Shown: piece by piece, positions 46,401 to 52,400 of the stretch
Position numbering within the stretch: position 1 is the first letter of the stretch
How the letters are laid out: every line of letters begins with the position of its first letter
DNA from: Malacoraja senta
Taxonomy: Eukaryota
Length of the DNA: 64,000 nt
Assembly (NCBI GenBank): GCA_038087875.1
Contig: CM075977.1
Span: 133,610,001-133,674,000 of the forward strand
Direction: 5' to 3'
Made by a program: the position numbers

Positions 46401-49400
46401 GTTGACTCCACCACTGACCCATCGATGAAGACATGTTTGTAGATCTTCAGCCTTCCTCTTCCAAAGTCTATAAGTAGTTCCTTGGTTTTAGTGATGGTGA
46501 GAGCAAAGTTGTTGCGCTGGCACCATTCAGTCAGATGATCGATCTCATCCTATACTCTGACTCATCATTATCTGTAATTCTTCCAACAATGATATTGTCA
46601 TCGGCATATTTAAAGTTGTAACTCTGTCTGGCCTTGTAATCGTGGGTACAGAGTGAGTAGAGTAGGGGACTGAGCACACTGCCTTGAGGTGCCCCTGTAC
46701 TCAGGTTATTGAGGAGGAAGTGTTGTTGCCAATGTGTACCAATTGTGGTCTGTTGATGAAGTCGAGGATCCAGTTACGATAGGGATGCGCAGAGACCCAG
46801 TTTCCTGAGCTTGGTCACGTTTAGAGTGGATGATGGAGATGATGATGGTGTGGAACGCTGAGCTATTATTGATGAACAACTGCCATTCAGGCCCTCAGTA
46901 CCTCCATCTCAATGTTCTTCAAGAGACCCAACACCACCTCCTTAATATCAACATGCCCTAGAATATCAGCAAACTACCCCGAGATCTCACAAACCTCCCT
47001 GTCCTTCTCCTTGGAGAGTACTAATGCCAAGTACTTGTTTTGTAGCTCACCTAATTCATCTGGCTCCAGGTATAAATTCCCATTTAAGTCCTTGAGTGAT
47101 CCTATCCTCTCCCAAGTTACCCTTTTGTTTTTAGTGCATGTATAAAATACCTTGGGATTTTCTTCATTCCTACTCAAAATGACATTTCACGGCCCCTTGT
47201 AGCCCTCCTGGTTTGCCATTTAATTATTTCCTGCTTCTGGAGCAATCCTATACAATTTCAGCTTCCTAAACCGTACATTTGCTTCCTTTTATTTCTGACT
47301 TAATTTTTTAACGTCTCTTACTATACAAGGTTCCCGAACCTGGCCATCCTTGTCTGTCTTCCTCATGGGAAGAATCAAATACACAGGACAAGATTTTAAG
47401 AAGTCCCTTGTGCCAATAGGTGGGGAGCATTTCACGACATTCGTTGATTGTTGAGAGTGGTAGACGCTCAACATCGGGGGGGGGGGGGGGTAACCTTCAG
47501 GACAGTTGGGCACAGGACACATCATCAGTAGTGTACCCTTGCATCACTGGGTGTTTCGGCCTTTTAACACTATACACCCTCCACAAGGGCGGCCCGCTGC
47601 AGGATGATCAACCCTCAGCGCATGTCCCGTGTCAAACCGTCCCAAAGATTCACCCCGACATACTTGGGGCCCAGCATGGGTCTTTCCGCTTGAGCCAAAT
47701 CCACCGGCTGCTTCTTTCAGCCGCCTCTGAGAGTGATCTTATGGTCTTCCGCAGAGCCTGACCGTGGATTCCAAGCTCCTTCAGCAGTCTGATGGTAGAT
47801 GACGCAACAAATCCTCTGCATCCCACTTCAACTGGATAGACTTTGGTGTTCCAGCCACGCTGCGTTGCCTCTGCTGCAAGCTCTGCGTAGCGCAGCTTCT
47901 TACGCTCATAGGCCTCCTCAACAGAGTTCTCCCATGGAACTGTGAGCTCTATGATGTAAGCAGTCTTCTGTGAAGGGGACCAGAACACCAAGTCTGGCCT
48001 GAGGGTGGTGGAAGCAATTTCAGGTGGAAAAATTAGTTGTCGGCCGATGTCCGCCAGCATCCTCCCAGTCACGGGCCCTGCATTGGCTTCCTTCTTCTGA
48101 TCTGGTGGAAGGAAGTTTAGAAGTTTTCTGTCCTTCTCGGACAAAGGTTATTACCCTTAGGGGAGGGTTGCTTGCTCTCGGAGGCAAGGAGTTGGTCGCA
48201 CACCGCCTGTTCTCAAGGGCTGATGCCAGCTTTTTAGTACCTGATTATGCCGCCACGTGTATCTCCCTTGCGTGAGGCTGGTCTTGCAGCCTACCATGAT
48301 GTGTTTGAGGGTCGCTGGAGTTGGGCAGATGGCACAGGTTGGATCCTCGCCGTACCACTGATGGAGGTTCTTTGGTGATGGAAGCACGTCATATGTCGCT
48401 CTGATGATGAAGCTGATCTTGCTTGCTTCCATTTCCCATAGTTCTTTCCAGCTGATCTTCCTCCGCTCCACACCTTCCCACTGCATCCATTGCCCCTGCT
48501 TGGCAAGAGAGACCGCCTTTGCACTTCTTGCGGCCTCCTCCTGTCGCCGCACCTCCTCAACCACCAACGTCCTCCGCTCTGATGTTGTGGCCTTTCGCCA
48601 AGTTGGTTTACTTGTCGTAAGGCCAAAGCCTCCTCTTCCCTGCTGGACTTGCCCCACTATGTCTTTGTGCCTCAGGGCTGATGAAGCTTGCTGTACTGCA
48701 TCAGATGGTGTCCACTTCCGGCCAGTTGCTAGGGGCGGCGCAACAGCACTGATGATCTTGTCTCTAGAGTCCCTCAGTGTCATCTGGAGTCTTACTTTAG
48801 AACACTTATATTCCTCTGTTAGACTAGTGAGAGGTAGTTCCAGGACCCCTTTGCCATAGAGGCCGATGTTAGTTAGACATCGTGGGACACCGAGCCATTT
48901 CTTCACGTATGAAGTTATGGTTCGCTCCATCTTCTCCACAGTTGTTATTGGGGCTTCATAAACGGTCAGTGGCCACATTGTCCGAGGAAGGAGTCCAAAC
49001 TGTAGGCACCAGAGCTTCAGTTTCCCAGGCAGTAGGGTCTGATTGATGTTCTCCAGTCCATTGACAATTTCTTGCCTTAGTTGTTGCACCTGCTCTTTGT
49101 CCTTGAGACTTGCGTTATACCATCTTCCCAGGCTTTTAACTGGCTGCTCAGACACTGTTGGTATTGGGTCGTCACCAATACAGAACCTTGTGTCTCTAAG
49201 CACCCCCTTGACTATGGAGATGCTTCGAGATTTACTTGGTTTGATTTTCATTCGGGCCCACTTGATGTTCTCCTGCAGCTTTCCAAGTAGCCGCTTGGTG
49301 CATGCTGCAGTAGTGGTTAGTGTTGTCATGTCGTCCATGTATGCCCTGATGGGTGGCAGACGGAGCCCAGCCCTGGTTCTTTCACTGCCCACCACCCATT

Positions 49401-52400
49401 TTGAGGCCCTGATGATGACTTCCATGGCCATTGTAAAGGCCAAGGGTGAGACTGTGCAGCCTGCCATGATGCCTACTTCCAAGCGCTGCCATGTTGTACT
49501 GAAGTCAGCTGTTGTGAAGCACAGCTGCAGGTCTTGGTAATATTTCTTGACCAGTGTGGTGATGAGCTCTGGTACATGGAAAAAGGCAAAAGATTCCCAA
49601 AGGAGTTCATGGGGAACTGAACCAAATGCATTGGCCAGATCGAGGAAGATCACATGTAGGTCTCTCTTGTCCTTCTTAGCTGCTTGGATCTGGTGCCAGA
49701 TCATGCTTGTATGCTCCAAGCAACCCGAAAATCCTGGAATTCCTGCTTTCTGTACAGATGTATCAATGTACTTGTTTGTTACCAGATAGGTGGACAGCCT
49801 TTGTGATACAATGCTAAAAAAGATTTTTCCCTCGACGTTGAGGAGACATATTGGCCGGAATTGGCTGATGTCTGACGAATCCTTTTCTTTAGGTATTAGC
49901 ACGCCGCCGGCCCTTCGCCAAGCCTTAGGTATTGTTTGCTTCTTCACACCACCCTCATGAGCTTCCATAGAAAGCGTAACACATCTGGTGCGTTCTTATA
50001 GAGCTTGTATGGTACTCCGTTTGGCCCCGGAGCTGAAGCTGCTCTTGCTCGCCGGACCGTGTTCTCCACCTCTTTCCATCTCGGAGGGCTGGTGTCCATG
50101 TTGAATTCAGGTGGTTGAATAGGCGGGATGTCATGTGGGATGACCAACTGCTCATGCCTTTTCGTGTCTTTGTGGGCCTTTTCCAGGTGTTCCTCCAATT
50201 CCTGTTTTGATGTTTTCAAAGTTCCACTTTTTCCTTTGCGAAGAGGTCTTTGATGAACTTGAAAGGGTCTTTATAGAACCGTGTTCTTGTGTGTTCTTTC
50301 TTCTTGCGAAGTTTCCTCAAGTTCTCTGCTTTTCGCAAGGTTGCCAATCGGTTCTTGATGTCCTCTTGGAGTAGCATGAGACCTTCTCTCTCTGCGTCAG
50401 TTGCTTTTTTCCATTGCTTTTTCAACTGTCTCCTCTCTCTGATTAGCCTCTCGATCTCCTGCTGCCTCCTGGACTTGATTGGTGTTGGTAATTTCTTTCC
50501 ACCTCTCCCTTTACTCACCCCAAACCGTTCTTCTCCATAGCTGTAGATTGTGTTGCCCATCCTTTCAAGCTTTTCCACTGCTGTGCCCGTTTGTTGCTCC
50601 AAGATATGTATAAGGTCACTGTTGACCGTCTCCCACTCTTTCTTTTCAACAGCCTTGGGCCATTTCACTCCAGGTTTGTGCCCTTTGATCTTTCCCTCCA
50701 ATGGAGGTCTTTGTAGTTGTTGCGTGGGCTCCTCCACCGGCATTTCTGTGCTTGTATCACCCTCTTCAGTGACATGGGTGCTGATGCTCTGCGAACTTTG
50801 GTTTGTGTCCCGTCGCTGTGCTTCACTCGACTGATTTGACTGGTTGCTTCGTAAGAAGTACTGGTCAATGCGAGGCCCATGTTTCTGCTCTCTCAAGCAC
50901 TTTTTCTTCCCTTGGTGGATCTTCAAGCCCTTCACTGATGTTAATTTCTCCCAACCACAGATGCACACCTGAAGTTTGTGTCCCGCAGCTGTTGTGGATG
51001 TCTCATGTGCCATGCTCTCCTTGTCAGTAGTCGTTTCCGTTCCTGGGTCTGTAACCGTGTTATCAATCGGTGAGCCATCTTCCGCCCCCGCTCTCGCAGG
51101 CTCTAGGGGTATTCTCTTTATTTTACTTTTAGTAGCATTTAGCGGGTGTCTCCAACTAGCTGAAACAGCGTTGGGGACTGCTGTCATGGGTAGCTAGCCC
51201 ATGACGGCCCCAGTGGGGTCTGTTCCCTCCTGTCAGCTGTCTCTCCAAGCTGTCACATGGACTTTCCCATGTTGTCAGCTGTCCTTTCACAGCAGTCACT
51301 GGACGAGTCCAGCTTCCTAAACCGTACATTTGCTTCCTTTTATTTCTGACTAAATTTGTAACGTCTCTTACTATACAAGGTTCCCGAACCTGGCCATCCT
51401 TGTCTGTCTTCCTCATGGGAATTTGTTGGTGATGAATTCTGACCAGCTGGCCTTAAAATACTCCCAAATATGTCAAATGTGGACATCCAATAACAGCTGC
51501 TCCCAAACTATTCTCCCCAGTCATTGCCTAATACTGCTGTATTTATCCTATTCCCCAAGTTGGTTCTTTCCCCTGAGGCCAAATCTTATCCTTATCCATA
51601 ACTACTTGAAAACTTATGGCATTCTGATCACTCCATAAATGGATGAACAGAGACATTTTTTAAAAATTGAGTGAGACCTGACAACTTTCTCCCCTGATCG
51701 AGAGATAATGCTGAAGTAACTCCAGGAGCATCTCTGGAGAGAAGGTGAATCTCTGGATAAAAAGGTGAATGAAGAATCTCCTTTACTCCAGAGGTGTTGC
51801 CTGATCCACTGAGTTACTCCAGCATTTTGTGTCTATCTGATACAAACCAGCTGCAGTTTCTTTCTACACAACTTCCTCCTTTGCTTCTTTTAATTGACCG
51901 AGATATATGGTATCTTGGCCGTGATTTATCAATTTTCAAAGAAAAATAAAATACTCCTTTTACTGTGGTAGGTAGGAAATAAACAGCATCTTAAAGGTTG
52001 AATAAGTTAATAAGTTCATAAGTGATAGGAACAGAATTAGGCCATTCATCCCATCACGTCTACTCGACCATCCAATAATGGTTGATTTATCTTCCCCTCT
52101 TATCCCCATTCTCCTGCCTTCTCCCTATAACCCCTGACACCTGTACTAATTTAATGGGAATGGGAAGCAGAAAGGTCTAGAGACAGAATTCCAGTTGAAG
52201 GCATGATTGCCTTAGGGGAATGATTAGAATCGAAGGTGTGAAGAGGGTTATGTGGGAACATCTCTCCCATGGTCTTCACTCTGCTTCTGACCGTGGACGT
52301 CATAAAGGCAGCTCTAGGGATGGAGCACCCTCTCCCCTGTAGTTTATTAAGTAATGGAGCTGCTCCTGCTGCCTCTGTTTCTGGCTGTGCTTGACCTCAA

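What the first reader, a model, noticed from the sequence alone, without database searches (positions are those of the whole stretch)
47259..51421. Exceptionally long (~112 bp) target-site duplication around the Hero element
Seen in the sequence: 47259-47371 and 51310-51421 are a direct repeat with only about three differences, all in one T-rich patch. The repeated DNA is continuous with the old CR1-like host sequence on both sides, so it is duplicated target rather than an LTR. Established knowledge: most non-LTR TSDs are under 30 bp, and duplications over 100 bp are a rarity known from the RLE-encoding R9 element of bdelloid rotifers. Inference: second-strand nicking occurred about 112 bp away, possibly a family property.
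Basis: partly seen in the sequence, partly recalled or inferred. Interest (0 to 1): 0.72.

Follow-up and report, generated by a model that had tools for sequence, protein, structure and literature searches.

The report
112-bp duplication flanking a retrotransposon
A full-length but now broken R2-group ("Hero-like") jumping gene sits inside an older jumping gene and is bracketed by two copies of 112 bases of the DNA it landed in, several times the usual length, but a single copy cannot show whether this is a habit of its family.

Summary
47259-47371 (113 nt) and 51310-51421 (112 nt) are a direct repeat, 110 of 113 columns identical. Its three differences all fall in 47300-47309.

The two copies abut, with no spacer, the ends of a 3,938-bp minus-strand LINE (47372-51309). 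This LINE encodes a reverse transcriptase, a CCHC knuckle and a restriction-like endonuclease whose predicted fold best matches solved R2 proteins.

The repeat is duplicated target, not an element-borne terminal repeat. Six independent database proteins of an APE-type LINE each align once through right flank plus right copy and once through left copy plus left flank, and the shared residues are those the repeat encodes. The right flank alone still matches 2 of 5 upstream protein segments above every one of 300 shuffles.

It was most likely made in one target-primed insertion whose two strand breaks lay 112 bp apart.

Not shown:
- That this is a family property: there is one copy in the window, and no eukaryotic genome collection was open.
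- The clade label "Hero": no named reference was available.

Long duplications are already known for R9, Dualen and occasional L1 events. Interest is moderate.

The parts
47259..47371 (.). Left copy of the duplicated target (113 nt). It abuts the 3' end of the minus-strand element and carries the three differences at 47300-47309.
   Evidence: It is in one reading frame with the host LINE remnant to its left.
51310..51421 (.). Right copy of the duplicated target (112 nt). It abuts the 5' end of the minus-strand element.
   Evidence: It is colinear with the host LINE remnant to its right.
47372..51309 (-). Full-length RLE-type (R2-group, Hero-like) non-LTR retrotransposon, 3,938 bp, with no poly(A) or microsatellite tail.
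   Evidence: Relatives of about 1,000 aa align from residue 1-2 (51148 for P0141, 50668 for P0122) to residue 1001 of 1006 (47668). 566 proteins matched at E <= 1e-10, the best at 85% identity.
47650..51187 (-). The element's single reading frame, from the first ATG (51187-51185) to the stop at 47650-47652. It is broken by four 1-nt indels near 50231-50236, 49945-49950, 48235-48240 and 48055-48062.
   Evidence: The three stops at 48148-48156 lie inside the out-of-frame stretch between the last two indels.
49126..49896 (-). Reverse transcriptase domain.
   Evidence: Pfam RVT_1 E = 8.9e-24, residues 34-290 of the 612-aa frame. The best PDB sequence matches are R2 proteins 9nl3_A (5.7e-20) and 9dou_A (1e-19).
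48286..48336 (-). CCHC zinc-knuckle motif upstream of the endonuclease.
   Evidence: The Cys/His columns are invariant or nearly so across relatives.
47683..48060 (-). Restriction-like (PD-(D/E)xK-type) endonuclease domain, with motifs RPD at 47992-48000, ELTVPWE at 47929-47949 and ERKK at 47896-47907.
   Evidence: D52, P71, E73, K83 and others are invariant in 17 sequences. AlphaFold2 model with mean pLDDT 73.4. The top six Foldseek PDB hits are all R2 proteins, E 1.4e-5 to 1.4e-3, TM 0.50-0.58.
47372..47649 (-). 3' untranslated region, including a run of 15 G on the + strand at 47476-47490.
51188..51309 (-). 5' untranslated region (inferred from the first ATG of the open frame).
45953..47258 (-). 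Host LINE, downstream part (linker, RT, C-terminal region). It continues into the left repeat copy.
51422..51632 (-). Host LINE, upstream part (end of the APE region and start of the linker). It continues from the right repeat copy.
   Evidence: P0279 residues 8-105 align to 51632-51336 and P0242 residues 14-43 to 51541-51452.

Best explanation
The two 112/113-nt repeats are a target-site duplication made in one insertion event. A full-length RLE-type LINE of the R2 group (probably Hero clade) integrated by target-primed reverse transcription into the linker-coding part of an older, already decayed APE-type LINE, in the same orientation.

Reading the junctions under the standard model:
- The window's + strand was nicked at the right edge of the segment, after the base now at 47371. 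That 3' end primed the cDNA, which starts at the element's 3' end (47372).
- The - strand was broken at the left edge of the segment, 112 bp away. That 3' end, now at 51310, primed second-strand synthesis at the element's 5' end (51309).
- The two 112-nt 3' overhangs were then filled in, which gave two copies.

Shown: the repeat, its exact abutment to both element ends, host colinearity on both sides, single-copy state in relatives, and the RT/CCHC/RLE make-up of the insert.

Inferred: the order and position of the nicks, and who made the second break. I put roughly even odds on the element's own endonuclease (a family tendency) against a distant host-made nick (a one-off).
For: The repeat is far beyond chance (E = 5.9e-49), and its edges coincide to the base with the element's ends.

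Host continuity. A full-library HMMER search with the left copy plus left flank, read in the host frame with X at stops, gave 50 proteins at E <= 0.001. By TBLASTN, 9 of these span the whole left copy. Six of the 9 (P0242, P0243, P0245, P0275, P0279, P0286) also hit the right copy, all but P0245 reaching 24-211 nt beyond it into the right flank, with the overlapping residues being those the repeat encodes. For example, P0242 residues 1-78 align to 51599-51348 and residues 54-206 to 47372-46929.

The right flank without the repeat still matches: P0242 residues 14-43 at E = 0.003, against 0 of 20 shuffles with any hit. The upstream segments of P0242 and P0279 exceed all 300 shuffles.

A paralogous LINE copy at 42923-43364 has 118 nt for the 39 residues in question, that is, the segment once.

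The insert is complete at both ends against relatives and has RT, CCHC and an R2-like RLE fold.

Staggered breaks giving 3' overhangs are the accepted source of such duplications, and 126 bp is documented for the RLE element R9 (passages of PMC6895275).
Against: - No empty site, no second copy of the family and no reads were available, so the single-event origin rests on parsimony.
- 3 of the 9 proteins spanning the left copy (P0250, P0284, P0289) gave no hit on the right side at E <= 0.01.
- 3 of 5 upstream segments were not above shuffles on the right flank alone: 20, 194 and 66 of 300 shuffles reached them.
- Only 1 of 50 proteins hit wholly inside the right flank, though few of the 50 extend that far upstream.
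- The three differences are clustered (P = 0.013) in a T-rich stretch. This could equally be a consensus error of the assembly.
Confidence: 0.85

Rival explanations
1. One-off event. The insertion is genuine, but the second-strand break was not made by the element at a set distance. The cDNA was completed from a pre-existing host nick, gap or replication or repair end that happened to lie 112 bp away. Other copies of the family would then have short or no duplications.
For: In L1, duplications over 100 bp occur in up to 10% of cultured-cell events. They become the majority when nucleotide-excision repair is lacking, and the authors ascribe them to distant unrelated nicks (passages of PMC5223499). 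I saw no sequence likeness between the two nick sites by eye. The finding reached me because it was unusual, which favours rare events.
Against: For the only copy that could be inspected to be a rare outlier is unlikely a priori. RLE LINEs are the group in which long staggers are documented (R9 at 126 bp, Dualen at median 900 bp; passages of PMC6895275 and PMC9977147).
Confidence: 0.42
2. Family habit. The element's own protein, a second subunit or the enzyme acting after the template jump, cuts the second strand about 100 bp or more from the first as a rule. Long duplications, fixed or variable, would then be typical of this Hero-like family.
For: The only inspectable copy shows it. The endonuclease fold is R2-like, and R2-group elements range from a 2-bp deletion to a 126-bp duplication (passages of PMC6895275 and PMC3636483).
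Against: n = 1. No paper found in 7 searches gives a duplication length for Hero. Repbase Reports and Kojima and Fujiwara 2004 are not held, so the point may be in print unseen.
Confidence: 0.42
3. Pre-existing tandem duplication. The host LINE already carried the 112-bp segment twice, and the element landed exactly at the joint.
For: It cannot be excluded without the empty site.
Against: The element's two ends meet the repeat edges with no spacer on either side, so the landing would have to be exact to the base. The nine relatives spanning the segment and a paralogous copy in the window carry it once.
Confidence: 0.03
4. Assembly artefact. One of the two copies, or the differences between them, was created by mis-assembly or consensus errors.
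For: The differences lie in a homopolymer-rich patch. The element's only frame-breaking lesions are four 1-nt indels, at least one of them in an A-run, a pattern also typical of long-read consensus errors.
Against: There is no gap or N near either junction. Each copy is continuous with different unique sequence on each side. A false duplication would not place a complete element exactly between the copies.
Confidence: 0.05
5. Element-borne terminal direct repeat (LTR-like or pseudo-LTR). The 112 nt would belong to the mobile element.
For: Direct repeats at both ends are, on their face, what an LTR looks like.
Against: The repeat encodes a stretch of the host LINE's linker that is conserved in independent proteins and is in frame with both outer flanks. 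The insert has LINE architecture, not LTR architecture.
Confidence: 0.02

Closest known systems
R9 of bdelloid rotifers (R2-group, RLE LINE)
   Same: An RLE-encoding LINE whose insertion duplicates over 100 bp of target: 126 bp, as cited in passages of PMC6895275 and PMC9977147. I did not see the original paper.
   Different: R9 is specific for one rDNA site, so its length is constant across copies. Here the target is a decayed LINE, no rRNA was found in the window, and constancy across copies is unknown.
Dualen-4b_cRei of Chlamydomonas
   Same: A LINE with an RLE whose fresh insertions are flanked by long duplications of the target. More than half exceed 50 bp, with a median of 900 bp (passages of PMC9977147).
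   Different: Dualen also carries an APE endonuclease, to which the authors tentatively ascribe the effect. No APE was detected in this element.
L1 insertions with large target-site duplications
   Same: Occasional duplications over 100 bp from a distant second-strand break (passages of PMC5223499).
   Different: L1 is an APE LINE with a poly(A) tail. Its typical length is 5-30 bp, and the long ones are a minority except in repair-deficient cells.
R2, R8 and R4 (RLE LINEs with short staggers)
   Same: The same protein plan (RT, CCHC, RLE) and the same insertion chemistry. The RLE model here matches solved R2 structures best.
   Different: R2Bm deletes 2 bp, R8 duplicates 9 bp and R4 duplicates 13 bp (passages of PMC6895275). 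All three are site-specific.
Hero clade (HEROTn, HERODr, HEROFr and Repbase HERO families)
   Same: A non-site-specific RLE LINE (passages of PMC3636483 and PMC4640811). The published range of sea urchin, lancelet, fish and bivalves (passages of PMC9004415 and PMC10294476) matches where this element's relatives are found.
   Different: Membership could not be tested against a named reference, and I found no published duplication length for the clade.

Membership tests
RLE-type (R2-group) non-LTR retrotransposon | Reverse transcriptase domain of the LINE type | tested here: met
   RVT_1 at E = 8.9e-24. The best PDB matches are R2 proteins, followed by L1 ORF2p.
RLE-type (R2-group) non-LTR retrotransposon | C-terminal CCHC motif followed by a PD-(D/E)xK restriction-like endonuclease | tested here: met
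   Motifs are conserved across relatives. The model has pLDDT 73.4. The top six PDB fold matches are R2 proteins, E 1.4e-5 to 1.4e-3. The sequence search of the PDB matched the RT part only.
RLE-type (R2-group) non-LTR retrotransposon | No APE endonuclease; one reading frame | tested here: met
   No Exo_endo_phos match in any of the four frame pieces at E <= 0.01. Single proteins of about 1,000 aa align end to end.
Hero clade | RT groups with reference Hero elements in a phylogeny | not testable with these tools
   No named Hero sequence appears among the 120 listed hits or in Pfam, and Repbase is not available.
Hero clade | No fixed target site (most families) | tested here: inconclusive
   The one copy sits in a LINE remnant, not in rDNA, an snRNA gene or a microsatellite. 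One copy cannot show lack of specificity.
Target-site duplication (as against a terminal repeat of the element) | Direct repeats abut both element ends, and the repeated DNA is continuous with both outer flanks | tested here: met
Target-site duplication (as against a terminal repeat of the element) | The segment is single-copy at the unoccupied site | tested here: inconclusive
   It is single-copy in nine related proteins and one paralogous copy. The true orthologous or allelic empty site was not available.
Target-site duplication (as against a terminal repeat of the element) | Other copies of the element carry different flanking repeats | not testable with these tools
   No other copy in the window. 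The one outside locus is a distant, decayed RT without repeats.
R9-like elements | Insertion at one 28S rDNA site with a constant long duplication | tested here: not met
   The target is a LINE linker remnant, and the window has no Rfam match at all. This lowers 'is an R9', not 'works like R9'.

The most novel reading that the evidence does not exclude
Hero-clade LINEs, which are non-site-specific RLE elements, habitually break the second strand a hundred or so base pairs from the first. A long stagger would then be a property of the enzyme or of its branched-DNA intermediate, not of one special rDNA site as in R9. If so, fish genomes would hold many natural examples on which the 4-way-junction model of second-strand cleavage could be tested.
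Probability: 0.35. Interest if true: 0.6.

Novelty: new member of a known kind. Interest (0 to 1): 0.42.

Why it matters
How LINEs choose and cut the second DNA strand is the least understood step of their insertion (passages of PMC6895275).

Site-specific elements cannot separate 'distance set by the protein' from 'distance set by the site'. A non-specific RLE element with a long stagger could. If the length recurs across copies, the protein or its DNA intermediate measures it. If it varies widely, opportunistic nicks are used.

On present evidence this is one clean, well-preserved example. It is useful as a lead and as an annotation caveat: such repeats can be mistaken for LTRs, and recombination between them could delete the element. 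It is not yet a new rule.

Tried and rejected
- the homology search with the host linker was sent in the wrong frame and found nothing. One search was wasted. It was redone in the right frame with the full-library search.
- eleven long RT-bearing relatives of the host LINE reached only to 46882 at usable E-values, with one weak linker match at 47135-47025 (E = 0.05). They could not test continuity across the insert.
This is L001, a 4,622-bp contig of a bivalve-symbiont assembly at 28% identity, with broken frames and no direct repeat of 25 nt or more. It is of no use for measuring duplications.
- seven literature searches found no stated duplication length for Hero. This does not show it is unpublished.
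- the Rfam scan of the window gave no match.
- By eye I looked for microhomology at the two junctions and for likeness between the two nick sites. I found only a 3-nt coincidence at the 3' junction and drew no conclusion.
- P0249 and P0262, among the 50 hits, are unrelated repetitive proteins and were not used.
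Full report
**1. The observation**

- The two stretches are there, at the coordinates given. The repeat finder reports them as two in-register families offset by one base. Self-BLASTN of the window gives 47259-47371 against 51310-51421 at 97.3% over 113 columns, E = 5.9e-49.
- An alignment with added flanks shows that similarity begins and ends abruptly at 47259/51310 and at 47371/51421.
- The three differences are one 1-nt indel and two substitutions, all within 47300-47309. 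Three random sites among 113 lie that close together with P = 0.013.
- Nothing else in 46000-53000 comes near this repeat: the other direct repeats are 20-25 nt at 69-82%.

**2. What lies between the copies**

- The 3,938 bp from 47372 to 51309 are one LINE on the minus strand. Stop-to-stop frames of 325, 108, 612 and 165 aa follow one another on that strand.
- I searched the four pieces separately and did not join them. The 612-aa piece holds Pfam RVT_1 (E = 8.9e-24). The other three have no family above cut-off, and none has an APE domain.
- The word-indexed protein search gave 566 proteins at E <= 1e-10 among 8,000 scored candidates. The best is 85% identical over 93% of the query. Named hits come from many ray-finned fishes, a sturgeon, lancelets and bivalves, and three hake entries are labelled as R2-type pol.
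- Eight full-length relatives aligned by TBLASTN cover the element from their residue 1-2 (51148 for P0141, 50668 for P0122) to residue 1001 of 1006 (47668). The copy is therefore complete in coding capacity.
- The same search found only weak RT likeness elsewhere in the window (22-29% at 31755-32792 and 42539-42973). BLASTN found no second copy.
- The frame is broken by four single-base indels, near 50231-50236 (in an A-run), 49945-49950, 48235-48240 and 48055-48062. The three stops at 48148-48156 lie in the out-of-frame stretch between the last two indels, so no substitution-made stop is evident.
- The C-terminal part carries a CCHC motif (48286-48336) and the motifs RPD, ELTVPWE and ERKK (47992-47896), which are conserved in relatives.
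- An AlphaFold2 model of the last 165 aa (mean pLDDT 73.4, first 25 residues disordered) finds solved R2 retrotransposon proteins as its six best PDB fold matches (E 1.4e-5 to 1.4e-3, TM 0.50-0.58). Viral PD-(D/E)xK cap-snatching nucleases come next.
- By sequence alone the PDB search matched only the RT part, with R2 proteins first.
- The insert is thus an RLE-type LINE of the R2 group. The name 'Hero' fits the taxa of its relatives and the lack of an rDNA target. I could not test it against a named reference.

**3. Is the repeat host DNA?** This is the crux, and I tested it without joining any sequence.

- *Query.* Read on the minus strand, the left copy and the 400 nt to its left form one frame with three stops. 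That read-through (P0121, X at stops) was scored against 1.84 billion representatives. 50 proteins reached E <= 0.001 and 6 reached E <= 1e-10. Two of the 50 are unrelated repetitive proteins.
- *Both sides.* TBLASTN of all 50 back to the window showed that 9 span the whole left copy. Six of these 9 also give a second alignment over the right copy, and in five of the six it runs on 24-211 nt into the right flank (P0245 only to 51428), the overlap in protein residues being the part the repeat encodes. Examples: P0242 residues 1-78 at 51599-51348 and 54-206 at 47372-46929; P0279 residues 8-105 at 51632-51336 and 77-187 at 47375-47052. The other three (P0250, P0284, P0289) gave no right-side hit at E <= 0.01.
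- *Right flank alone.* Because the right-side alignments include the repeat, I also tested 51422-51800 alone. 1 of 50 proteins hit it (P0242 residues 14-43, E = 0.003), against none in 20 shuffles. In a local-alignment test of the five upstream protein segments against 51422-51700, two exceeded all 300 shuffles (P0242: 74 against a maximum of 51; P0279: 55 against 41). Three did not (20, 194 and 66 of 300 shuffles reached them).
- *Paralogous copy.* A paralogous LINE copy at 42923-43364 leaves 118 nt for the 39 residues concerned, that is, one copy of the segment.
- *Nature of the host.* Relatives of the host carry RVT_1 and, weakly, an APE domain. The host RT and C-terminal part lie at 45953-46882.
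- *Conclusion.* The target was one continuous, already decayed APE-type LINE, hit in the linker between APE and RT. The 112 nt are duplicated target. An LTR-like reading is excluded.

**4. Mechanism**

- With the element on the minus strand, the standard target-primed model places the first nick on the + strand at the right edge of the segment. The 3' end now at 47371 primes the cDNA from the element's 3' end.
- The second break is on the - strand at the left edge. Its 3' end, now at 51310, primes the second strand at the element's 5' end.
- This leaves two 112-nt 3' overhangs to be filled, the geometry that gives duplications rather than deletions (passages of PMC6895275). These steps are inferred, not shown.
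- I saw no microhomology at the 5' junction, only a 3-nt coincidence at the 3' junction, and no evident likeness between the two nick sites (by eye).
- Who made the second break cannot be told from one copy. A pre-existing tandem duplication would require a landing exact to the base. An assembly artefact would not put a complete element between two copies that each run on into different unique sequence. Both stay formally open without the empty site and reads.

**5. Comparison with what is known**

- Among RLE LINEs, R2Bm deletes 2 bp, R8 duplicates 9 bp, R4 duplicates 13 bp and R9 duplicates 126 bp (passages of PMC6895275). Reptile Utopia duplicates 20 bp (passages of PMC4640811).
- Dualen-4b_cRei, which has both RLE and APE, makes duplications of over 50 bp in more than half of fresh insertions, with a median of 900 bp (passages of PMC9977147).
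- L1 usually gives 5-30 bp. It gives over 100 bp in up to 10% of HeLa events and in 57-91% of events in excision-repair-deficient cells, which the authors ascribe to distant nicks (passages of PMC5223499).
- Hero elements are described as mostly non-site-specific (passages of PMC4640811 and PMC3636483).
- In seven searches I found no paper that states a duplication length for Hero. Repbase Reports, Kojima and Fujiwara 2004 and the R9 paper itself are not held, and supplements were closed, so this is not a claim that none is in print.
- The case works like R9 in outcome. It is not an R9, because it has no rDNA target.

**6. Novelty and verdict**

- The finding is real and cleanly documented: a full-length RLE LINE with a 112-bp target-site duplication. 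The kind of event is known.
- What may be new is seeing it in a non-site-specific, Hero-like element. I file it as a new member of a known kind, of moderate interest.
- The bold reading, that a long stagger is a family habit, gets about one chance in three. It is directly testable by surveying the other copies in the source genome, which no tool here could reach.
- Nothing in the window or in that locus looked human. No spliced gene model was involved.

Noticed in passing
window 47300-47309 (left copy) vs 51351-51359 (right copy): The three differences look like one event in the left copy. In the alignments, read by eye, the right copy keeps residues shared with relatives: N in 3 of 6 and V in 5 of 6 at positions where the left copy has K and S. 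The third difference is uninformative. All three changes are towards T on the + strand and lengthen a T-run. Possible causes are error-prone fill-in at insertion, a later local slip, or a consensus error.
   Followed up: partly
window near 50231-50236, 49945-49950, 48235-48240, 48055-48062: The element's only frame-breaking lesions are four 1-nt indels, at least one in an A-run. No substitution-made stop is seen in about 1,180 codons. This fits either a young copy with a few real indels or long-read consensus errors in an intact copy.
   Followed up: partly
window 47476-47490: A run of 15 G on the + strand (C15 in the element's sense) inside the element's 3' untranslated region.
   Followed up: no
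window 46882-47025: The host LINE seems to lack about 115 codons between its linker and RT motif A. P0096 residue 87 maps to 47025 and residue 251 to 46882, only 143 nt apart. This is either an internal deletion or two fragments.
   Followed up: no
window 45087-45638: A second, better preserved LINE 3' fragment (72% to P0016 residues 314-494) lies just left of the host LINE's own C-terminal part (45773-46818), in the same orientation.
   Followed up: no
window 52017-52133 and 52584-52700: Inverted repeat arms of 117 nt, 84% complementary and 450 nt apart, with related copies at 20133-20273, 21240-21344 and 63132-63277. This looks like a MITE or short TIR transposon family.
   Followed up: no
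window 51771-51869: A short dispersed repeat of about 50-100 nt with at least ten further copies in the window, for example near 25762-25988, 29912-30249, 34427-34484 and 16343-16400. It marks where recognisable host LINE sequence ends on the right.
   Followed up: no
window 42524-43364, 31503-32978, 36285-36972 and others: Several more copies of LINEs with the same linker and RT type occur on both strands. The window is largely a LINE graveyard.
   Followed up: partly
L001 929-2561: A decayed RT, 28% identical to the element's, sits on a 4.6-kb contig filed under a bivalve gill symbiont genome. It is probably host (bivalve) DNA in a bacterial assembly.
   Followed up: partly
window 61411-61568: A run of N. 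It was left as it is.
   Followed up: no
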